Under the pieces are notes generated by a model. The model had not been told where the DNA came from, ran no database searches, and was given only the letters and a program-made list of their open reading frames with translations. The position numbers and the translations under genes were made by a program. DNA of 64,000 bases from a virus, in the UHGV virus genome UHGV-0149956. The stretch is one strand, 5' to 3'. Below, in pieces: positions 1,967 through 17,019 of this stretch (its first letter is position 1; every line of letters begins with the position of its first letter).

Positions 1967-1983
1967 ACCAACGTTTTTATGCC
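1958..1983 (-). other. Crossover-like site 4
   Basis: TTCCCCTAAACC-AA-CGTTTTTATGCC. Confidence 0.5.
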
Positions 1984-2438
1984 GCCCTTACGATATAATT
2001 AAAGGCAATATTACGAGGACGGTTTTCATTAGCTGTTGGCACGACACGAGAGGCGTCGAATCCAAGGTCATCGGTTTTGCCTATATCAGTTGTGTTATTC
2101 GGCATTCTCGCAGATCGTGTTCCTGCATCATAAAAAGCCCCTCTGATTGCATCAAAAGACATGCCAATCCCGCCATCTGCGAACCCCTCAATATTTCTTA
2201 TTGCATCCCCCTGTGAAGATAATAATTGTCGCCCGGCATCCACACCACGTCCGTCATCCCAGCCACGAATAAATTCACCGCGTAAATCCGGCAATTTATT
2301 AGTAGGGTAAGCCTTTGCCAGATTTGGGTACTTTTCAGAAGAAAATGCTGCTCCGTTACATTTCAGCCACCCCGTTGGCGGAGTGGCTGAGGGCCACGGA
2401 ACAGGTACGCCAACAGGCAATGCTGAGCCTTCCCCCAA
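1977..2438 (-). CDS. Tail-fibre C-terminal cassette 3
   Basis: Same conserved N block and C-terminal RPRNIAFNYIVRAA with distinct variable core. Confidence 0.6.
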   Translation of the reverse strand: MGEGSALPVGVPVPWPSATPPTGWLKCNGAAFSSEKYPNLAKAYPTNKLPDLRGEFIRGWDDGRGVDAGRQLLSSQGDAIRNIEGFADGGIGMSFDAIRGAFYDAGTRSARMPNNTTDIGKTDDLGFDASRVVPTANENRPRNIAFNYIVRAA

Positions 2439-2455
2439 ACCAACGTTTTCATGCC
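2430..2455 (-). other. Crossover-like site 3
   Basis: TTCCCCCAAACC-AA-CGTTTTCATGCC. Confidence 0.5.
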
Positions 2456-2877
2456 GCCCTTACGATATAATTAAACGCAATGTTACGAGGACGAATGGTT
2501 ACATAATTAACCCCATCACCTCGTGAAGGCCCTGCAAATGAAAAACGGGAAAATCCTGGTTGGTTAGAAACAATTTGGTCATAGTTATTGATTGAATGAC
2601 CAGACCCAATGTCGAAATTACCTCCGTAATGAGAAAAACTTGTACCATCCTGCCCTGAAAGCAGGGTACGTCCCGCATCAATCCCGCGCCCATCATCCCA
2701 GCCACGGATAAATTCACCGCGTAAATCCGGTAATTTATTGGTGGGGTAGGCTTTTGCCAGTTTGGGATACATTTCAGAAGAAAATGCTGCACCATTGCAT
2801 TTTAGCCAGCCCGTTGGTGGTGTTTCTAAGGGCCACGGAACGGGCACACCAACAGGCAGTGCAGAGCCTTCCCCCAA
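2449..2877 (-). CDS. Tail-fibre C-terminal cassette 2
   Basis: Same conserved blocks, distinct variable core. Confidence 0.6.
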   Translation of the reverse strand: MGEGSALPVGVPVPWPLETPPTGWLKCNGAAFSSEMYPKLAKAYPTNKLPDLRGEFIRGWDDGRGIDAGRTLLSGQDGTSFSHYGGNFDIGSGHSINNYDQIVSNQPGFSRFSFAGPSRGDGVNYVTIRPRNIAFNYIVRAA

Positions 2878-2894
2878 ACCAACGTTTTTATGCC
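2869..2894 (-). other. Crossover-like site 2
   Basis: TTCCCCCAAACC-AA-CGTTTTTATGCC. Confidence 0.5.
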
Positions 2895-3355
2895 GCCCTT
2901 ACGATGTAATTAAATGCAATATTACGGGGGCGGGTTTCAGATGCTGTACGAACTGAGCGAGAGGCGTCGAATGTCCAGTTATAAGAGCCATAACCCTCAA
3001 TAATTTCCGTTTCCTTTAGGCCTGTAGATAATACTTGACCATGTTGACTAAATGGCCCTGAACTAAGTACATCTCTAAAAAGCTGAGTACGCCCGAAAGA
3101 ACCAACAATATTCTGAATTGCATCATTCTGTGCAGATAATAAATTACGGCCAGAGTCAATCCCCCGCCCGTCATCCCAGCCGCGAATAAATTCGCCCCGT
3201 AGATCCGGCAATTTATTAGTAGGGTAAACCTTTGCCAGATTTGGGTACTTTTCAGAAGAAAATGCTGCACCATTGCATTTCAGCCACCCCGTTGGCGGTG
3301 TGGCTGAGGGCCATGGAACAGGTACACCAACGGGCAGTGCCGAGCCTTCCCCCAA
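2888..3355 (-). CDS. Tail-fibre C-terminal cassette 1
   Basis: Same conserved blocks, distinct variable core; lies 10 nt after the stop of the main fibre gene. Confidence 0.6.
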   Translation of the reverse strand: MGEGSALPVGVPVPWPSATPPTGWLKCNGAAFSSEKYPNLAKVYPTNKLPDLRGEFIRGWDDGRGIDSGRNLLSAQNDAIQNIVGSFGRTQLFRDVLSSGPFSQHGQVLSTGLKETEIIEGYGSYNWTFDASRSVRTASETRPRNIAFNYIVRAA

Positions 3356-8184: not shown

Positions 8185-8540
8185 AGCACCACGTCCTGTG
8201 TGATAGTTATATCCCTGATACGAATGGATATTTTCAACTTATCAAAAGCATCTCCCTCGGCTACTGACAAGCCAGAAATCGGTATGTCAGGTAAATCTAC
8301 CGTCAGTTTTTGCAACAGCATTGCCTCAACCGCAATTTGAACATGCGACAAGTTGGTCGGTTCGTGTTTAAACAGCGGTAAAACATTGCCCCATGACGGA
8401 TCTCCGTATACCTCACCCTGATAAGTGTTTAGCCACTCATATAAACGAGCGCCCCAGGCCTCCTCCTGGGACTCATACGTTTTTACGCCGGATAACTCCA
8501 GCGTCAGCAAAGGATCAATTTCGTTATTGTTGGCCATCAA
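8181..8540 (-). CDS. Small baseplate-associated protein (W/gp25-like position)
   Basis: 119-aa ORF coupled between Sit-like gene and wedge gene. Confidence 0.35.
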   Translation of the reverse strand: MMANNNEIDPLLTLELSGVKTYESQEEAWGARLYEWLNTYQGEVYGDPSWGNVLPLFKHEPTNLSHVQIAVEAMLLQKLTVDLPDIPISGLSVAEGDAFDKLKISIRIRDITITQDVVL

Positions 8541-11500
8541 TCAACTCTCGCGTAGTCATTCATCAACGGATCATCAATTGACAGTGGTACCGTGCGCATA
8601 ACGCCCGGCTGAGGCGTGCTGACCTTTACGACAGTTCCCTGGCCTTTCGCCGAGTCTTTGGTGTGCTCTTCAATCCTGGCAAGCAATGAGGTCATCTGCG
8701 CAAACAGCCGCTTCGTTTCACCATCAAGTGAAACGGTATTATCAGCCAACTGCATTGTCGGCTTGGCACCGGAACCGCCAAGGTCACTAATAACCTGCCC
8801 GTCTATCTGCATACGACCGGTTGGTTGCTGCAAATCGTTGGCGGCAGTCGTCACCTGGGACGTGGAGGCTGGTTCAGGCGCATTATTTTTCCGCATCCCC
8901 GGCGAGTTGCGGAGTTTATCGAATAGTCCATCAATCCCCATTTGTGCGCCGAGATGGTCAAAGTAACTTGAGTTGTTGGCCACCGGACGCGCCTCTTCAA
9001 CTGGCATCGGAGTATCAACATACACATTGCCAGCTGCTGTTGCGGTCCCCTTCTCTCGTGCACGTTCTTCTAGCGTTCCCTGAACGACTTCCCGACGCAT
9101 CCCCCGGCCATTCATGAATTTGTTGACCAGATCGTTAACGCCAACAGCATTGCCGATTTTGTCGACCAGACCGCCTTTCTCAAACGGGCTATCACCAGGG
9201 GTAAACGCCAGGCCAGTATACTGATCGATAACAGCGTTATCAGGCAGTGGTCCCCTCACTCCATATTGCGCCCCACCCTGTGCTCCTGCTCCAGGTGTAT
9301 AGATTTCACCACCTAAATAGCGAGCACGATGAGTATTGACCTTGATCGCGTACTCACGGTTTTCTTTCGATAAGTCACCGGTGCCTTTTTTCCACTTATT
9401 AATAGTGCCAAACCCAGCATTATATGCAGTGATGGCCTCGTTTAAGTCTCCATTGGCTTGCTTAAGATACTTGCTCATGAGAAGAGCCGCAGCTTCTGCC
9501 GATTTCACAGGATCAAACGATTCACCTTCAGCTAAGCCAGTCTCTTCACGAGCAATCCCCGTGAACTGAAACATCCCCAGAGCACCGGTTTGGGATTTTG
9601 CATACGGATTACCACCAGATTCAGTTGCAGCAATCGCGTAAAGAGTGCCTTCTGGAAGACCGTATTTATTCTCTAGTTCGGCAAAATACGGAGCCAACTT
9701 ATCGAGATTTGCCTTACCTTCAGCGCCAAGACTTCCGACTTTTACATCTAAGTTGCCATTGTTGTAAGTATCCGCAGCTTTCTGAATGTCATTCCTGGTG
9801 CCAGTGGTATTAAGCGACGATGATGACGAGCTATTTTGACCAATAGCTTTATCAATTTTCTGCAACGCGCTATTGCCCGTTTCTACGGCATTTGCATTGA
9901 TAATCTGATTGGCAGTTTGTTTAACTGTTTTATTGCTATCTTTCGCTGTGTCCAGTGCCGCATTTATCACGCGGGTAGCAATATTACTCTGTTTGGCATC
10001 GGATTCAGTTTTAGAATCAGACGTCTCCTGGTGGCTATTAACCGGAGCTTTTAACTCCGGAGTGATTTCTTTCGCATTAGCCTCGCCGATCGGATTGGGT
10101 ATTTTTGATACAATCATTGCCGCAGGGGTATTTTTAACGGCATCAACCGCTGCATCTAATGCTTTACCAGGTAAATTTTTAACCCCATCCCAAATATTAC
10201 CAGCCGCCTCTTTAATGTGTTTCCCTGGGTTCTTAATGAAATCAATTGCACTATCAATTGCATCACTGAAAACCTGTTTCAGGTTATCAACAGTAAAGAA
10301 GTCTTTGATGGCATCCAGCTTTTCAAGCAGCTTATTAGATGTATCGCTAAACCATGCTGAAACAGCATCACCAATCTTTGCTGTGTAATCTTCGAACTTG
10401 GTAGAAATGGTGTCGCCAAGGTTAGAAATATATGTTTCTAAGTTGGTAATCCCACTATCAATGGCCTGGGCAATACTTTCCGTCGAAAATGATTGCAACA
10501 TATTGCCGATATCCTCAAATCCAAGTGATTTGAGAACCTCACCAATGGCGCTGCTAATACCAGATACCAGTCCCCCCATATCAAGAACATTGGCTAACGT
10601 ATAAGCGGCTTTTTGCTGGAATGATGGCTCTTGTCCTGATTTAAGCCCAAACGCTCGACGTTGCGCTTCTGTATCATTCCAACCGGTTACCGCATCATAA
10701 ATACCTCCAGCCACTGTGCCGACTAAGGGAATTGCGCGTAACGCCCCTTTACCAACTGCCTTTAATCCAAATTTACCTGCTGCCCGGGCAGCCAAATCTC
10801 CACCTTCATGGGCGATAGTCTTCTTGCCACCACCGCGTAGCATTCCTACAAGTTTCTTTGCCCCCAGAGCGCCAAAAGCGAGTGCTCCAGCTTTTTTCAG
10901 CATGCCACGCCCCATTAACAACGACGCGACGCCACCGGCCCCCTTCCCTAACAGGCTAAATAGTTTGGACAGCAAGCCGCCCTTCTTTTTCCCGGTGTTT
11001 TTGGCTATCTGATCAAGGGCGCTGAGAATCTTGTCATTGCCCTCTTTAATTTCGCTGGTCTGCTCCTGAAGTTCCTGAACCGTCCGTTTTTGGGTGTTAA
11101 CCTGAACGACATCGGCACTATTTTGCGATTTACGCCTAAAAAAACCTTTTCTACGGCTGTTATCGTCATTGCCACGAATCACATCGGCAATAGACTTTCT
11201 GGCGCCATTAAGCGATCCACCAACTTCTTTTGATATCCCGCCAAGCTCCTTCCCTGCTGCCCACAATGGACCAGCAACGGCATAACCTAACGCATCGACG
11301 GCACGAGTCTCTGAAGGGTTACCTATGCCTTCAGCTACTTTTGACAGTTTTTTTAATAAACCTGATTCAGCATTTAGACGCTCATCATCCTCTTTGCGCC
11401 TGGCCTTTTCAGCACGTTCAGCACGGGCATCTTCCGCTGCGGCCTTACTCCCTGACTTTCCAATAAAACGACCACGCGCATCGCGTTGGTTTTGGCTTTT

Positions 11501-11929
11501 TTGCGCACCGCCTTTTTGATCGAACATTTCGCGAGCGTGTTCGGCTGCTTCGGTCCGTTGTGCCTTTATATCCTCTGATATAGCCTTCCTGCGTCTTTTT
11601 TTACCCTTTGGTGTAGTTGATTTGGCCTGCTGTTCCTGTTGAGCAATGCCCTCCTGAACTACACGAGAAACGTCCCCTAAATTAAGCCGTTTCATTGCGT
11701 CAACAATAGGGTCTACTGATGGCGCATTGGCCACAAAGTCTGGCCGGGAATTTTCGATTGTTCGATTTAATGCCGACACACTGCGAGAGACAGGATCAAC
11801 AGTTGCAACTCGTTCCCCTTTCAAATCTTCAACAGCTTCCCGAATACCTGCAAGCTCTTCCAGCTCTTTCGCGCTGGCGGTTTCAACTGTCCTTATAACA
11901 TCGTCAATATTGGCGTTTTTTCTTTCCAT
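8537..11929 (-). CDS. sit: Injection/tape-measure-like protein with soluble lytic transglycosylase domain (Sit-like)
   Basis: 1130 aa; SLT motif AIAATESGGNPYAKSQTGALGMFQF; Lys/Ala/Gly-rich low-complexity regions. Confidence 0.7.
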   Translation of the reverse strand: MERKNANIDDVIRTVETASAKELEELAGIREAVEDLKGERVATVDPVSRSVSALNRTIENSRPDFVANAPSVDPIVDAMKRLNLGDVSRVVQEGIAQQEQQAKSTTPKGKKRRRKAISEDIKAQRTEAAEHAREMFDQKGGAQKSQNQRDARGRFIGKSGSKAAAEDARAERAEKARRKEDDERLNAESGLLKKLSKVAEGIGNPSETRAVDALGYAVAGPLWAAGKELGGISKEVGGSLNGARKSIADVIRGNDDNSRRKGFFRRKSQNSADVVQVNTQKRTVQELQEQTSEIKEGNDKILSALDQIAKNTGKKKGGLLSKLFSLLGKGAGGVASLLMGRGMLKKAGALAFGALGAKKLVGMLRGGGKKTIAHEGGDLAARAAGKFGLKAVGKGALRAIPLVGTVAGGIYDAVTGWNDTEAQRRAFGLKSGQEPSFQQKAAYTLANVLDMGGLVSGISSAIGEVLKSLGFEDIGNMLQSFSTESIAQAIDSGITNLETYISNLGDTISTKFEDYTAKIGDAVSAWFSDTSNKLLEKLDAIKDFFTVDNLKQVFSDAIDSAIDFIKNPGKHIKEAAGNIWDGVKNLPGKALDAAVDAVKNTPAAMIVSKIPNPIGEANAKEITPELKAPVNSHQETSDSKTESDAKQSNIATRVINAALDTAKDSNKTVKQTANQIINANAVETGNSALQKIDKAIGQNSSSSSSLNTTGTRNDIQKAADTYNNGNLDVKVGSLGAEGKANLDKLAPYFAELENKYGLPEGTLYAIAATESGGNPYAKSQTGALGMFQFTGIAREETGLAEGESFDPVKSAEAAALLMSKYLKQANGDLNEAITAYNAGFGTINKWKKGTGDLSKENREYAIKVNTHRARYLGGEIYTPGAGAQGGAQYGVRGPLPDNAVIDQYTGLAFTPGDSPFEKGGLVDKIGNAVGVNDLVNKFMNGRGMRREVVQGTLEERAREKGTATAAGNVYVDTPMPVEEARPVANNSSYFDHLGAQMGIDGLFDKLRNSPGMRKNNAPEPASTSQVTTAANDLQQPTGRMQIDGQVISDLGGSGAKPTMQLADNTVSLDGETKRLFAQMTSLLARIEEHTKDSAKGQGTVVKVSTPQPGVMRTVPLSIDDPLMNDYARVD

Positions 11930-12906: not shown

Positions 12907-13518
12907 TTAAAGCGAAAAACTAAAGCCCAGAAGGGAAGCTAAAGAACTTGAGGATTGGTTAAACGTGCTGTGCAACGCGAAGGTCATTGGGAATGACTTA
13001 AATTCCGTAACCTGATCCCGCGCATAGGTGACATCGCCGGTAGTGACCGGGAATACCGTCATCTCATTTTCCAGTTTGGTTAAACCGGAGGACAGCAACC
13101 GATAAATACGCACATTGAGCAAATATTTAGACGGTATATTCCCGGTACCGTCCGGATTGATCACCCGACTTTTTGCCGTCTTAAACCAGTCCAAAACGAG
13201 GCCATCAACGGTATCCCTGACCATCATTGTTATCTGCCCAGGCGAACGCTCCGTTGGCTGAAGGATATTCCCTCCGCCGATTTTAATCGTTTCATATTCG
13301 ATGCTGTAATCGTGGTAGGTAATGTCTTTAGCAAAGAAGTCTGCCCCCTCCAGACCATCAACTTCGACAGAGAACTGCCATCCTTGCGCGAACAGCATTT
13401 TGTTCATGATGATTGACGTCAGCTTGCCAACTTCCCGCTCACCAACGCCGGAGCCAAATAATGTCGTCGTTAATGCCGAAGATACATAAGACTTTACTGA
13501 AGCAACATTAAGCCCCAT
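12907..13518 (-). CDS. Hypothetical protein
   Basis: 203-aa ORF, tight operon spacing. Confidence 0.35.
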   Translation of the reverse strand: MGLNVASVKSYVSSALTTTLFGSGVGEREVGKLTSIIMNKMLFAQGWQFSVEVDGLEGADFFAKDITYHDYSIEYETIKIGGGNILQPTERSPGQITMMVRDTVDGLVLDWFKTAKSRVINPDGTGNIPSKYLLNVRIYRLLSSGLTKLENEMTVFPVTTGDVTYARDQVTEFKSFPMTFALHSTFNQSSSSLASLLGFSFSL

Positions 13519-13528
13519 ATCAGCCCCC

Positions 13529-14119
<591 letters not shown>

Positions 14120-14153
14120 TTAACCGATTCTACGAGTAGTCATTTGTGACAGG

Positions 14154-14630
14154 TCATTTTGCGCGCTTCAGGCAGCCATCTTCAGGTGCCGCGTTGAAAA
14201 GCTCTGCGGCCTTACGTAGCGTAAATGTTGCGATTTTTTTTCCGTCTACGTATGCATCGAATGTTTTTACTTCCATATCAGGGGTATCTGACCAAAAACC
14301 ATACCAGTAACTATCACCCACAGAGGAACCGATAGAACTTATAGGATATTCATCATCACCAACTTTCAGCGTTATTTGTTCTTTTTTAGCATCAAATGAC
14401 TCACCGCCAGGTTCTGTTTTCATGAGAGTGAGTAGTCGTGTTCCTACTTGATTGGGATCCGTATTATTAAATCCAACATCGCACTCAAATGTAAGCGTAT
14501 AATTATCTTTGCTGGAAACAGCATAAGAACGAACACCATGAGTCTCGCCGGTTGACCATTTGCTTACATTTGCCATTGATGAAAATGGAGTAAGCAAAGC
14601 AAGAATTAGAAAAAATCGTTTGATGCGCAT
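14154..14630 (-). CDS. Secreted/periplasmic protein with signal peptide
   Basis: N-terminus MRIKRFFLILALLTPFSSMA is a classic Sec signal peptide. Confidence 0.5.
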   Translation of the reverse strand: MRIKRFFLILALLTPFSSMANVSKWSTGETHGVRSYAVSSKDNYTLTFECDVGFNNTDPNQVGTRLLTLMKTEPGGESFDAKKEQITLKVGDDEYPISSIGSSVGDSYWYGFWSDTPDMEVKTFDAYVDGKKIATFTLRKAAELFNAAPEDGCLKRAK

Positions 14631-14691
14631 TAATTTATCTCCTTTGGATATTAACGATTATCAATATTTTAATTGGTTATCCATAATATAT

Positions 14692-15366
14692 TTACCATTC
14701 ATATGGTAAATTAAGCGCTTTTAAACCTTGCTGAAAGGTATTAAGTGAGCCGTTCTTTTGTTGTTCCATTTGTTCGCGTGCCGCTTTCTCATACTGCTCC
14801 ATCCGTTGGTTATACTCTTGCAATTCCTCTGGTGAGAGGTTTCCCATTGGGGAGTTTGTACCCGGCCCCCTGGCCCGCTCTTCAAGCGTACCCTGCACGT
14901 TTTGATGGCGCATTCCAGGGGCATTTCTGATTGAGTCAATGCCATTTCTTCCAACGTCTTCTTTATTAACGGCATTGCTCGCCACCAGCACACCCCAGCT
15001 AGGAATAGCAAAATCAGGAGCGGTTTCGCATGCCTTTACCATATAATCGAAAGAGCTTCGATTGATCTCGTTTGCGTCGGGATTTAACAGGCGAGAATAT
15101 TGATATTTAGCATTTTCGTTGGTTGCGACTTTATACAGTTCTTGCTGCACCATCGCTTCAGAAAGTTTAAGGCGTTTCATATCTGACAGTAACTTCTTGC
15201 GCATGGATTCGTCTTGACTGACAGCAAAGCCGTAAACGTGCCCAAGGTATTTCGTATAATCGGTACAAATCTCCTTTACGCTTGATGCTGCATTAACAGT
15301 CCCAGCCATAAATAATAACGGTAGTAATAGTTTTCTCATTATAACCTCACCTGCCTTATAACTCAT
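14692..15366 (-). CDS. Secreted protein, candidate superinfection-exclusion (Sim-like); shares a motif with Sit
   Basis: Signal peptide MRKLLLPLLFMAGTVNA (true start probably 15339); GMRHQNVQGTLEERA matches GMRREVVQGTLEERA in the Sit-like protein. Confidence 0.4.
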   Translation of the reverse strand: MSYKAGEVIMRKLLLPLLFMAGTVNAASSVKEICTDYTKYLGHVYGFAVSQDESMRKKLLSDMKRLKLSEAMVQQELYKVATNENAKYQYSRLLNPDANEINRSSFDYMVKACETAPDFAIPSWGVLVASNAVNKEDVGRNGIDSIRNAPGMRHQNVQGTLEERARGPGTNSPMGNLSPEELQEYNQRMEQYEKAAREQMEQQKNGSLNTFQQGLKALNLPYEW

Positions 15367-15435
15367 TTAGGGTACATATTTTCGCCTTTAAAAAAAAGAG
15401 GTTATTAGATCCAATTGTGTATTTATTAAGCACAC

Positions 15436-15452
15436 AATGCTCTAATAAATTT
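15436..15452 (+). promoter_or_regulatory. C1-repressor-type operator 17-mer
   Basis: AATGCTCTAATAAATTT versus recalled P1 consensus ATTGCTCTAATAAATTT. Confidence 0.65.
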
Positions 15453-15559
15453 GTATTTTTAAGTCGCGAATGCTATCTTTTCGCATCATATTGACCTTTT
15501 AATCGTTCAGGCTTATAGTTCCGCCGTCGTAGCAAATTCTGCGACCGGGTTTAGCAGCC

Positions 15560-15650
15560 TGAATGTTAGTGCGGACAACCGCAGATATCCGATATTGCGG
15601 TATTTTTGTGTCCGTAAAACCGCGTTACGCCCAAATTATGGTGGGGCGTG
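15560..15650 (+). ncRNA. Candidate c4-like antisense regulatory RNA region
   Basis: Structured segment (inverted repeats CGGACAA...TTGTGTCCG and CCGCAGATAT...ATATTGCGG) between the operator and icd, the expected place for c4 in an immI region; boundaries approximate. Confidence 0.3.
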
Positions 15651-15766
15651 ATGGGGAGGCTTCGGCCTGCTGGTTTCACTAACGCCAGTCTGCTAACCCC
15701 GTCACGTCCTGCCACCTGTTTAGCAGCGGGTAGCAGGTTGTTAAACCTGTTAGTGAGGCCGTAACT

Positions 15767-15988
15767 ATGGTTAATGCCAATCCTTGCGCACGCCAAGAAT
15801 TCATCTGGCGTTTCTATTCCTGTAAAAAACACCACTATCACTTCGTTATCGCAGCAACAGAAGACGAAGCACGCTCTCAATTGCCTGATGGCCCCTGCAT
15901 TTTTACTGCCCGTTTTTCAACTAACTCGCGCAATTCACTTAGTTACTGGAGCCTCCCCTTCTCTGCCGACGTTCAGGGGGGTTTATGA
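15767..15988 (+). CDS. icd: Icd-like small protein
   Basis: 73-aa ORF whose stop overlaps the ant start (ATGA). Confidence 0.5.
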   Translation: MVNANPCARQEFIWRFYSCKKHHYHFVIAATEDEARSQLPDGPCIFTARFSTNSRNSLSYWSLPFSADVQGGL

Positions 15989-17019
15989 AAACACCTCTCG
16001 TCACCCGTAATGAAATAGCCGAAGCGATCGCCTTGCATACAATCTGTATGCCGACACGGGAGATCCCCGGCGCAATTGCCAACTATTTCATGATAACCAG
16101 GCGTTTTTATACCCGAACAGATAAGGCTGTGATCAACAGGCTACTGATAGCCGAGATCAGGGATTATTTGATTGAACAAGGACGTCTACGTTACGCAACA
16201 GTGGCAGCAGAAATGAGAAAGGAGGCACATAGAATGACCGGTAATAATTTAAATGTTGAAAAACCAGCACCTGTTGCTTCAGCTACGCCAGCACCAGCCC
16301 TGAATGTCATCCCCAACACCGGAGACACAATCGACAGCCAAACATTGTTGAAGATGGTCAATGAGGCACGGAAATTATGTAGCGAAAAACCAGTTCGCAA
16401 CAATGATTTCATTGCCAGAGTTAAGGATGAGCTTGAAGGAGAAACCTACGAAATTTTCGTAGGTCAAAAAAACGGCGCAGAAATAGATATTATAACCATG
16501 ACCTACAAACAAGCCCTGCGAGTTGCCGCGCGCGAGTCAAAAGCGGTCCGCCGTTCGCTGATCGACAAACTGGAAGAATTACAGCAGGCAAACTCCCCTA
16601 CCCCATCGATCCCCCAAACATTACCAGAAGCCCTACGCCTGGCTGCCGAGTTGGCAGAACAGAAAATGCATCTGGAACAACAGCTGGTGGCCGCAGCACC
16701 TAAAGTCGATTTTGCCGACCGGGTATCAGTGGCTAATGGAATCCTGATCGGTAACTTTGCAAAGGTCGTTGGACTTAAGCAAAACGCCCTTTTCTCATGG
16801 TTGCGCCAGAACGGCATTCTCATGGCTTTTGGTGCGCGCAAAAACGTACCGCGCCAGCAGTACATTAACGCCGGGTATTTCACGGTGAAAGAAGTGGTGC
16901 TGGATGATGAAAATGGCTATCAGATACGGCTGACGCCACAATTAACGGGTAAAGGCCAGCAGTGGTTAACTCGCAAGCTACTTGATGCTGGTTTGTTAAA
17001 ACCAGTAGCAATAGGTTAA
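15985..17019 (+). CDS. ant1: Antirepressor (Ant-like, KilAC-type C-terminal domain)
   Basis: 344 aa; C-terminal block LPEALRLAAELAEQK...GKGQQWL shared with KilA; SD AGGGGGG before ATG. Confidence 0.6.
   Translation: MKTPLVTRNEIAEAIALHTICMPTREIPGAIANYFMITRRFYTRTDKAVINRLLIAEIRDYLIEQGRLRYATVAAEMRKEAHRMTGNNLNVEKPAPVASATPAPALNVIPNTGDTIDSQTLLKMVNEARKLCSEKPVRNNDFIARVKDELEGETYEIFVGQKNGAEIDIITMTYKQALRVAARESKAVRRSLIDKLEELQQANSPTPSIPQTLPEALRLAAELAEQKMHLEQQLVAAAPKVDFADRVSVANGILIGNFAKVVGLKQNALFSWLRQNGILMAFGARKNVPRQQYINAGYFTVKEVVLDDENGYQIRLTPQLTGKGQQWLTRKLLDAGLLKPVAIG

What the first reader, a model, noticed from the sequence alone, without database searches (positions are those of the whole stretch)
14154..15366. 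Secreted proteins next to the immunity region, one sharing a motif with the injection transglycosylase
Two adjacent genes encode proteins with classic signal peptides. The 224-aa one contains NAPGMRHQNVQGTLEERARGPG, closely matching a segment of the Sit-like protein downstream of its SLT domain (GRGMRREVVQGTLEERAREKG) and a second copy (NSPGMRKNNAPEP). A periplasmic protein carrying a piece of the injected virion protein is a plausible decoy-type superinfection exclusion factor (Sim-like) that blocks incoming DNA injection.
Basis: partly seen in the sequence, partly recalled or inferred. Interest (0 to 1): 0.7.

Follow-up and report, generated by a model that had tools for sequence, protein, structure and literature searches.

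The report
Periplasmic protein copying tape-measure motif
In a P1-like phage-plasmid, the slot that holds phage P1's superinfection-exclusion genes carries two secreted proteins, and one of them holds a conserved copy of a short segment of the phage's own injected tail tape-measure protein, which makes it a testable candidate for blocking entry of rival phages by mimicry.

Summary
Window 14154-15366 (- strand) encodes two signal-peptide proteins in a P1-like phage-plasmid. They lie between pmgC and the c4/icd/ant immunity region, exactly where P1 carries simABC.

The upstream protein is 215 aa from its likely start (224 aa as an ORF). It is the full-length form of P1 simA: P1's 52-aa SimA is a 5' remnant, 146/147 nt identical until homology stops. 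It has a confidently folded helical N-domain with no structural relative, then a disordered linker. The linker carries about 30 aa homologous to a conserved island of the tape-measure/transglycosylase Sit (BLASTP E=1e-7; Sit-family profile E=8e-8; shuffle p about 3e-6).

A profile search of 1.84 billion proteins found the motif only in Sit-like and SimA-like proteins. The identity is kept despite different codons, and it persists in a lineage whose N-domain is only 33-39% identical.

The downstream 158-aa protein belongs to the YfjT/YkfB family and is co-conserved with SimA-like across at least four genera.

A Sit-directed periplasmic exclusion function is plausible but untested. P1's known determinant, SimC, is absent here. 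Many family members keep only the core NxxGMRxQ, which also marks the boundary to swapped C-terminal tails. Moderately interesting, and experimentally tractable.

The parts
14692..15339 (-). SimA-like gene, the full-length form of P1 simA. 215 aa from the likely start; the ORF extends to an upstream ATG at 15366, giving 224 aa.
   Evidence: ORF list. 99% identical to Ro157c2YLVW gp35. Full-length match to phrog_3933, E=5e-137. Its first 50 aa are 94% identical to P1 SimA.
15289..15339 (-). Predicted Sec signal peptide MRKLLLPLLFMAGTVNA, with cleavage expected after VNA.
   Evidence: Read directly from the sequence; hydropathy. The equivalent N-terminus is conserved in all homologs.
14950..15282 (-). 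Conserved all-helical N-domain (aa 20-130 of the 215-aa form), with two invariant Cys (C25, C104) and invariant YLGH and IPSW.
14836..14925 (-). Sit-like motif NAPGMRHQNVQGTLEERARGPGTNSPMGNL, in a linker predicted to be disordered.
   Evidence: for homology and statistics. pLDDT below 50. N, M, R invariant and G, Q nearly invariant across the family.
14695..14835 (-). Variable C-terminal tail (type A): a helix followed by the conserved end LNLPYEW.
   Evidence: Helix 170-196. Other lineages carry different tails here: 2-Cys modules, or truncation just after the motif.
14154..14630 (-). YfjT/YkfB-family secreted protein (158 aa, signal peptide, 2 Cys), co-conserved with SimA-like.
   Evidence: phrog_3429, E=1e-80. 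Orthologs carry PF27224 YfjT. 24% identical to E. coli K-12 YfjT, E=3.5e-11. PGAP names it 'YfjT/YkfB family phage-associated protein'. AAGGAG lies upstream of the ATG.
8537..11929 (-). sit: tape-measure protein with an SLT lytic transglycosylase domain (1130 aa).
   Evidence: Annotation of the P1 record. Described as the essential tape-measure protein in PMC10695390 and PMC12810830.
9023..9112 (-). Sit motif copy 1 (aa 940-969), NGRGMRREVVQGTLEERAREKGTATAAGNV. A conserved island between the SLT domain and the conserved C-terminal domain.
   Evidence: G, M, R, V, G, R, A, G are invariant among Sit homologs.
8882..8908 (-). Sit motif copy 2, core only (NSPGMRKNN), inside an insertion of about 45 aa found in E. 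coli-type Sit.
15436..15452 (+). C1 operator Oc4-like 17-mer AATGCTCTAATAAATTT. It lies a few bases from the position of P1's predicted PsimA promoter (about 15404-15430, - strand).
   Evidence: Alignment to P1, combined with the P1 record annotation. The promoter is only a prediction in that record.
15634..15719 (+). c4 antisense RNA of the immI immunity region (context).
   Evidence: Rfam RF01695, 70 bits.

Best explanation
The two genes form a prophage-encoded periplasmic module in the superinfection-exclusion (sim) slot of a P1-like phage-plasmid. They are probably transcribed from their own promoter, outside the late tail operon. The first protein, SimA-like, is exported. It consists of a folded helical domain, a flexible linker, and a variable tail. 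The linker displays a copy of a short linear motif otherwise found only in the C-terminal part of the tape-measure/transglycosylase Sit. Sit is the protein an infecting P1-type phage ejects into the periplasm ahead of its DNA. The most likely function is interference with the Sit-dependent step of genome delivery by incoming P1-like phages. SimA-like would either compete for whatever the Sit motif binds (a host envelope factor, another Sit chain, or the SLT domain), or use the motif to dock onto the incoming Sit assembly. The YfjT-like protein is an obligate-looking partner whose role is unknown. What is shown: location, export signals, homology and exclusivity of the motif, purifying selection on it, modular tails, and co-conservation of the pair. 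What is inferred: expression in the lysogen, any contact with Sit, and the exclusion phenotype itself.
For: The module sits in the same slot as P1 simABC and P7 upf50.0/50.5, between pmgC and Oc4/c4. The gene is the intact form of simA: 146/147 nt are identical up to about codon 47, then P1 switches to simB-simC. Both proteins carry signal peptides, and the cassette lies upstream of the position of late promoter LPsit and has lower G+C (0.36-0.44, against 0.47-0.51 in most flanking windows), as expected for an accessory cassette. The motif homology is significant by four methods. A profile search of 1.84e9 proteins returned 11 hits: Sit-like tape-measure proteins, SimA-like proteins and short fragments of them, plus one borderline repeat protein (P0048, E=2e-4) that I take to be a chance match. 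Identical residues mostly use different codons (13 of 18 in the window; 11 of 20 in a diverged cognate pair), so selection acts on the peptide. In a lineage whose N-domain is only 33-39% identical, the motif block is 17/24 identical, and the protein ends 13 aa after it. E. coli alleles truncated right after the motif remain intact ORFs in at least 11 contigs. Some states are shared within a lineage: GTLEERAR in both proteins of E. coli elements, and GSMA[DE]RA in both proteins of contig IMGVR_UViG_2871745582_000001. The motif is predicted disordered in both proteins, as expected for a short linear binding motif. The SimA-like and YfjT-like pair is conserved in elements from E. coli, Klebsiella, Cronobacter and Salmonella. 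Exclusion proteins that bind tape-measure proteins are documented for T4 Imm and HK97 gp15 (bioRxiv 10.64898/2026.03.06.709160). The P1 sim locus confers superinfection exclusion (Kliem and Dreiseikelmann 1989, as cited in PMC9177967 and PMC8546580).
Against: No phenotype is known for this protein. In P1 the protein annotated with the superimmunity function is SimC, and no SimC homolog is present here. Occupying the slot is not a function: P7 carries unrelated genes there. Many SimA-like proteins (Klebsiella, Cronobacter, several Salmonella) keep only NxxGMRxQ and then switch to unrelated 2-Cys tails. Either 8 residues suffice, or the core has another role, such as a cleavage site or a recombination junction. 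The first V of VVQG, invariant in Sit, is N/K/Q in all SimA-like proteins that carry the extended motif, apart from the diverged lineage, which has A. The covariation is only anecdotal: the Salmonella pairs L061 and L062 differ in the extended part. No partner was identified, there are no PADLOC, Pfam or NCBIfam hits, and the fold has no relatives. Expression in the lysogen rests on a merely predicted promoter in the P1 record. My own scan found no strong - strand promoter there.
Confidence: 0.42

Rival explanations
1. The helical N-domain is the active part, for example an inhibitor of Sit's lytic transglycosylase domain in the manner of T4 Spackle against gp5 lysozyme. The motif then only tethers or targets it. 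This is still exclusion, but by enzyme inhibition rather than by a decoy.
For: The N-domain is the best-folded part and is strongly conserved, with two invariant Cys suited to a periplasmic disulfide. In Sit the motif lies only about 60 aa downstream of the SLT domain. From my own knowledge, T4 Sp is likewise a small helical periplasmic protein.
Confidence: 0.15
2. The shared core NxxGMRxQ is a processing site or a module junction. It would be a site cut by a periplasmic protease, or simply the conserved joint at which recombination swaps C-terminal tails. The protein would then deliver variable C-terminal peptides for a lysogenic-conversion role in the envelope that has nothing to do with Sit.
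For: In two deeply diverged lineages, homology between family members breaks exactly after GMR[HQ]Q, and different tails follow. The tails are modular: one or two 2-Cys modules, a helix ending in LNLPYEW, or nothing. Conserved short motifs demarcate the variable ends in polymorphic toxin systems (established knowledge, by analogy only).
Against: This does not explain why the same core plus about 20 further residues is conserved in the tape-measure protein and nowhere else among 1.84e9 proteins. Nor does it explain why alleles ending right after the extended motif persist. The downstream YfjT-like type does not track the tail type as an immunity gene would. None of the tails resembles anything else encoded in the window.
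Confidence: 0.2
3. The motif is a passive relic. A piece of sit was captured by an accessory gene long ago, and the two genes are ordinary lysogenic-conversion 'morons' of unknown envelope function.
For: The slot is a known hypervariable, low-G+C region of P1-like phage-plasmids (PMC9603915). Both families are annotated only as hypothetical. YfjT relatives occur in cryptic prophages with no link to P1.
Against: A relic would decay. Instead the motif is the most conserved block of the protein in a lineage with 33-39% overall identity. Its identical residues are encoded by different codons. The core residues are invariant in all members.
Confidence: 0.1

Closest known systems
P1 sim locus (simA-simB-simC), superimmunity / superinfection exclusion
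   Same: Identical genomic slot between pmgC and Oc4/c4, with an identical 5' end (promoter region, ribosome-binding site, signal peptide and about 47 codons of simA). All products are signal-peptide proteins. The locus is non-essential for lytic growth in P1 (PMC10695390).
   Different: simB and simC are absent here. The window instead has the intact simA-type gene plus a YfjT-family gene. P1's SimA is only a 52-aa remnant. The Sim phenotype has been attributed to the sim gene product (SimC in the record annotation), not to SimA. SimB and SimC show no similarity to Sit or to any other protein encoded in the window.
T4 Imm and HK97 gp15, exclusion proteins that bind the tape-measure protein
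   Same: They are proposed to act at the same step, blocking tape-measure-mediated genome translocation after adsorption (bioRxiv 10.64898/2026.03.06.709160).
   Different: Both are inner-membrane proteins that bind the tape-measure protein. SimA-like has no membrane segment apart from its signal peptide. It would work, if at all, by carrying a copy of a tape-measure segment. There is no sequence or fold relationship.
T4 Spackle (Sp), periplasmic inhibitor of the tail lysozyme gp5
   Same: A small, secreted, helical phage-encoded protein that could meet the incoming tail's cell-wall-degrading enzyme in the periplasm. Comparison from my own knowledge.
   Different: No detectable fold or sequence similarity. 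Spackle is not known to carry a piece of its target.
E. coli K-12 YfjT / YkfB (PF27224), for the 158-aa protein
   Same: Homologous (24% identity, E=3.5e-11), with a signal peptide and prophage-borne. PGAP uses this family name for the P1-like copy.
   Different: In K-12, YfjT follows the lipoprotein YfjS, which is unrelated to SimA-like. No function is known for any member: the literature search found only incidental mentions of the name.

Membership tests
SimA family (phrog_3933; 'simA domain protein' in NCBI/UniRef names) | Full-length match to the family profile, and N-terminus shared with P1 SimA | tested here: met
   phrog_3933 E=5e-137 over 1-215. 94% identity to P1 SimA over 50 aa and 146/147 nt. 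Homologs are named 'simA domain protein'.
P1 Sim exclusion system (SimC-dependent) | Presence of a SimC homolog, the product annotated as conferring superimmunity | tested here: not met
   No SimC or SimB similarity anywhere in the window. A SimC-like gene occurs with a SimA-like gene only in another element, L036.
P1 Sim exclusion system (SimC-dependent) | Location between pmgC and the C1 operator Oc4/c4, with exported products | tested here: met
   Signal peptides.
P1 Sim exclusion system (SimC-dependent) | Blocks superinfecting P1 after adsorption | not testable with these tools
   Needs plating, adsorption and DNA-entry assays.
Tape-measure-binding inner-membrane exclusion proteins (T4 Imm, HK97 gp15) | Integral inner-membrane topology | tested here: not met
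   The only hydrophobic stretch is the cleavable signal peptide. The remainder is a soluble helical domain plus a disordered linker.
Tape-measure-binding inner-membrane exclusion proteins (T4 Imm, HK97 gp15) | Physical binding to the tape-measure protein | not testable with these tools
   No complex prediction was available. Pull-down or AlphaFold-Multimer is needed.
Lytic transglycosylase (SLT, PF01464) / Sit family | SLT catalytic domain | tested here: not met
   No SLT hit in Pfam. The match to the Sit profile is confined to positions 929-972, downstream of the SLT domain.
PTP-like phytase (PF14566) | Score at or above the gathering threshold, and a Cys-x5-Arg catalytic loop | tested here: not met
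   26.5 bits against a cut-off of 27. Neither of the two Cys (25, 104) is followed by x5-R.
YfjT/YkfB family (PF27224), 158-aa protein | Homology to YfjT, and the family tag on orthologs | tested here: met
   E=3.5e-11 to K-12 YfjT. PF27224 on orthologs that are 53-66% identical. PGAP name. The local Pfam copy lacks this model.
Known anti-phage defence systems (PADLOC-DB) | Match to any defence-system protein model | tested here: not met
   No hits for either protein at E<=0.1.

The most novel reading that the evidence does not exclude
SimA-like is a molecular mimic of the tape-measure protein. It would be a soluble periplasmic protein that displays a selected copy of the tape-measure protein's own short linear motif. 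By doing so it would either titrate the motif's partner or co-assemble with incoming Sit as a poison subunit, blocking genome delivery of P1-type phages. Its swappable C-terminal tails, and the motif duplications seen in some Sit proteins, would be traces of an arms race. That would make mimicry of an ejected virion protein a new principle of superinfection exclusion, and it would pinpoint a functional site in an otherwise unresolved tape-measure protein.
Probability: 0.28. Interest if true: 0.75.

Novelty: new variant of a known kind. Interest (0 to 1): 0.55.

Why it matters
How contractile-tailed phages move DNA across the periplasm and inner membrane is poorly understood, and Sit was not resolved in the P1 cryo-EM work (PMC12810830). 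A 30-residue island of Sit is conserved across very diverged P1-like phages and is also copied into an exported prophage protein. This flags a specific, mutable site that probably makes a functional contact during entry.

If the exported protein does exclude phages, it would add mimicry of the tape-measure protein to the known exclusion strategies. It would also explain one of the most common alleles of the P1 'sim' hypervariable region: 79 of the 304 complete E. coli genomes that match any part of the cassette region carry the full cassette. Finally, it bears on the spread of P1-like phage-plasmids, which carry resistance genes (PMC9603915).

Independently of function, the analysis corrects an annotation. 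P1 simA is a truncated remnant, not a gene in its own right.

Tried and rejected
1. Function from families. Pfam, NCBIfam and PADLOC gave nothing usable. The near-threshold PTP-like phytase hit was rejected because there is no catalytic loop.

3. Placing the motif on a Sit structure. The AlphaFold2 model of Sit aa 740-1130 resolves only the SLT domain.

4. Recent DNA duplication or gene conversion. Rejected: there is no nucleotide similarity and the codons differ.

5. Mimicry by other parts or other cassettes. The C-terminal tails of all SimA-like types, together with SimB, SimC, the P7 upf proteins and the other slot genes, show no similarity to anything else encoded in the window. The one exception is a YfjT paralog.

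6. Toxin-immunity logic, meaning a variable tail with a cognate downstream gene. Rejected because YfjT type 1 accompanies four different tail types.

7. Strict covariation between the SimA-like motif and the second Sit copy. Rejected: elements with a window-type SimA-like carry either Sit allele.

8. A link between K-12 YfjS and SimA-like. None was found.

9. The P1 genome paper (PMC523184) is not held, so statements about the original sim experiments rest on citations in other papers and on the GenBank annotation.

10. The homolog search with the Sit C-terminus returned mostly partial proteins.

Full report
**What the window is.** The region 13000-17000 is 96.5% identical over its full length to Escherichia phage vB_EcoM-Ro157c2YLVW and matches P1, P7 and other Punavirus genomes in its flanks. 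The 1.3 kb holding the two genes is 100% identical to a 94.8-kb plasmid of E. coli AVS0973. The element is therefore a P1-like phage-plasmid. Reading leftwards on the - strand, the gene order is: the two genes of the finding, then pmgC, tub, pmgB and sit. To the right on the + strand lie the C1 operator Oc4, the c4 antisense RNA (Rfam, 70 bits), icd, ant1/2, kilA and repL.

**The observation.** Both ORFs exist at the stated coordinates. The upstream one most likely starts at 15339, giving 215 aa, rather than at 15366. The 15339 start has a Shine-Dalgarno-like GGTGAGG, matches the homologs, and is the start annotated in Ro157c2YLVW. Both proteins begin with a basic residue or two, a hydrophobic core and an AxA-type site, and each has exactly two cysteines. 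The similarity to Sit is real:
- BLASTP gives 22/47 identities including a ten-residue identical run, E=1e-7.
- In a six-frame search of the whole window, Sit is the only non-self hit, E=3.4e-6.
- Two thousand shuffles never exceed a Smith-Waterman score of 70, against the observed 93.
- The segment independently hits the PHROG profile of the Sit family at the corresponding positions, E=8e-8.
- The weaker second copy in Sit (RNSPGMRKNN) is also there.

**The slot and the identity of the gene.** In P1 the same interval holds simA, simB and simC. In P7 it holds two unrelated exported proteins. The literature lists simABC as one of eight hypervariable, low-G+C regions of P1-like phage-plasmids (PMC9603915), and G+C also dips here. 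The new point is that P1 SimA (52 aa) is 94% identical to the first 50 residues of the window protein. At the DNA level the two are 146/147 identical from just upstream of the start to about codon 47. Homology then ends abruptly, P1 reaches a stop four codons later, and simB begins. P1 simA is thus the 5' stump left when a simB-simC cassette replaced the rest of this gene and its downstream neighbour. Other elements show other replacements:
- A SimA-like gene cut just after the motif, followed by a YfjT paralog and a 394-aa protein (L024 type).
- A full SimA-like gene followed by a SimC-like gene (L036).
- The SimA-like plus YfjT-like pair in elements from Klebsiella, Cronobacter, Salmonella and K. 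aerogenes.
Among 5,426 complete E. coli genomes, 304 match some part of the query and 79 carry the whole two-gene cassette, almost always on plasmids.

**Anatomy of the SimA-like family.** Homologs occur only on contigs of about 90-104 kb typical of P1-like elements. The family has three parts:
- A constant N-domain that AlphaFold2 models as an all-helical bundle, with pLDDT of 89-96 over most of its length. It has invariant C25, C104, YLGH and IPSW.
- An invariant core N-x-x-G-M-R-x-Q.
- A variable tail.
In the window type and several others, the tail begins with the extended Sit-like segment (V-Q/E-G-T/S-L/M-x-E-R-A-R/Y-G-x-G-T...). In others it switches immediately after GMRxQ to one or two 35-residue modules bracketed by cysteines, or it simply ends. 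The N-domain has no detectable relative by sequence profile or by fold. The motif region is predicted disordered.

**The motif in Sit.** Sit is the essential tape-measure protein of P1 and carries an SLT transglycosylase domain. It could not be resolved in the P1 cryo-EM structures (PMC10695390, PMC12810830). Across diverged Sit proteins the motif forms a conserved island between the SLT domain and the conserved C-terminal domain and is flanked by variable sequence. G, M, R, V, G, R, A, G are invariant. E. coli-type Sit has an insertion of about 45 residues with a second, core-only copy, in two allelic forms. A very diverged 1,367-aa Sit-like protein also has two copies. AlphaFold2 leaves the region unstructured.

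**Exclusivity and selection.** A 47-column profile of the motif, searched with HMMER against 1.84 billion representative proteins, returned eleven hits. Ten are Sit-like tape-measure proteins, SimA-like proteins or fragments of them. The eleventh is a borderline repeat protein (E=2e-4) that looks like a chance match. The resemblance is not due to recent copying. There is no nucleotide-level alignment, and 13 of the 18 identical residues in the window pair use different codons.

The search uncovered a lineage in which the SimA-like N-domain is only 33-39% identical to the others. Even so, the motif block is 17/24 identical and the protein ends 13 residues after it. Its cognate Sit lies on the same 94-kb contig. 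Both proteins in that lineage read GSMA(D/E)RA where both proteins of E. coli elements read GTLEERA. This hints at co-evolution, but other pairs (Salmonella L061, K. aerogenes L062) do not agree in the extended part. I treat the covariation as suggestive only.

**Mechanism.** SimA-like is exported, whereas tails assemble in the cytoplasm. The two proteins can therefore meet only in the periplasm, when an infecting phage ejects Sit. That point, the location in the exclusion slot, the selection on the motif, the survival of 'N-domain plus motif' alleles, and the precedent of exclusion proteins that bind tape-measure proteins (T4 Imm, HK97 gp15; bioRxiv 10.64898/2026.03.06.709160) together make interference with Sit-dependent genome delivery the best-supported reading. 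I put it at about 0.4. It covers two versions: competition for the motif's partner, or docking onto incoming Sit.

Three rivals remain:
- The N-domain inhibits the SLT domain, and the motif serves only as a tether.
- The core is a processing site or recombination junction for variable tails, with a function unrelated to Sit.
- The motif is a relic. Its conservation pattern argues against this.

Weaknesses of the favoured reading are that no phenotype exists, SimC is absent, many members keep only the eight-residue core, no partner is known, and expression in lysogens rests on a promoter that is only predicted in the P1 record.

**The 158-aa protein.** It belongs to the YfjT/YkfB family. No member has a known function, and the literature search found only incidental mentions of the name. 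Its tight co-conservation with SimA-like across genera suggests the two act together. Its type does not track the SimA-like tail type.

**Verdict.** I rate it a new variant of a known kind (periplasmic superinfection exclusion aimed at the tape-measure step) and moderately interesting because it is directly testable.

Noticed in passing
window 15223-15366 compared with P1 (L002 4432-4590): P1's annotated simA gene is a truncated 5' remnant of the full-length gene present in this window. Homology is 146/147 nt and then stops, with a stop codon four codons later and simB starting immediately after.
   Followed up: yes
window 14102-14112 and 14126-14136: A perfect 11-bp inverted repeat (CTCGTAGAATC / GATTCTACGAG, 13-nt loop) lies just upstream of the pmgC start codon. 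It overlaps the position where P1 annotates the late promoter LPsit. It could be a promoter element, a 5'-UTR hairpin, or a terminator for the upstream cassette.
   Followed up: no
window about 14849-14852 (run of four C on the - strand); alternative ORF 14721..15011 (-): Several database variants of the protein (205 aa: P0002, P0004, P0005, P0007, P0008, P0017) are frameshifted, several of them after GPGTNS at this C-run, and read into the alternative frame. These could be assembly errors or a real truncating or phase-type variant.
   Followed up: partly
window 8879-9020 (Sit aa about 970-1017) and related loci: E. coli-type Sit carries an insertion of about 45 aa, absent from Klebsiella and Salmonella Sit. 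The insertion contains the second core motif and exists in two alleles (RNSPGMRKNNAPEP and INARGMRSNNSPQP). A very diverged Sit-like protein (P0047) also has two motif copies.
   Followed up: partly
Sit SLT domain, window about 9305-9697; proteins P0031, P0034, P0040: Some Sit proteins carry a clearly different subtype of the SLT domain joined to the same post-SLT region. This implies domain swapping within the tape-measure gene.
   Followed up: no
window 14695-14715 (C-terminus LNLPYEW): The extreme C-terminus LNLPYEW is conserved in a homolog that is 58% identical (P0013) and is echoed as LNLPFKLY in a very diverged lineage (P0052). It resembles aromatic C-terminal tails recognised by periplasmic PDZ proteases or the Bam machinery. 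This is untested.
   Followed up: no
window 14692-15339, N-domain aa 34-118: A Pfam PTP-like phytase hit falls just below threshold (26.5 against 27 bits), and a precomputed PF14566 tag appears on the E. coli homologs. There is no Cys-x5-Arg loop, so the hit is probably spurious.
   Followed up: partly
L024 11074-12258; L063 10571-11452; L061 10768-11121: Other alleles of the slot carry further uncharacterised genes: a 394-aa protein, a 123-aa secreted protein with a 161-aa membrane protein, and a 117-aa membrane protein. None resembles any other protein encoded in the window.
   Followed up: partly
window 1977-3355 (-): Three adjacent paralogous ORFs of about 140-155 aa produced repeated weak hits in a search unrelated to them. 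They may be tail-fibre assembly genes of an invertible segment.
   Followed up: no
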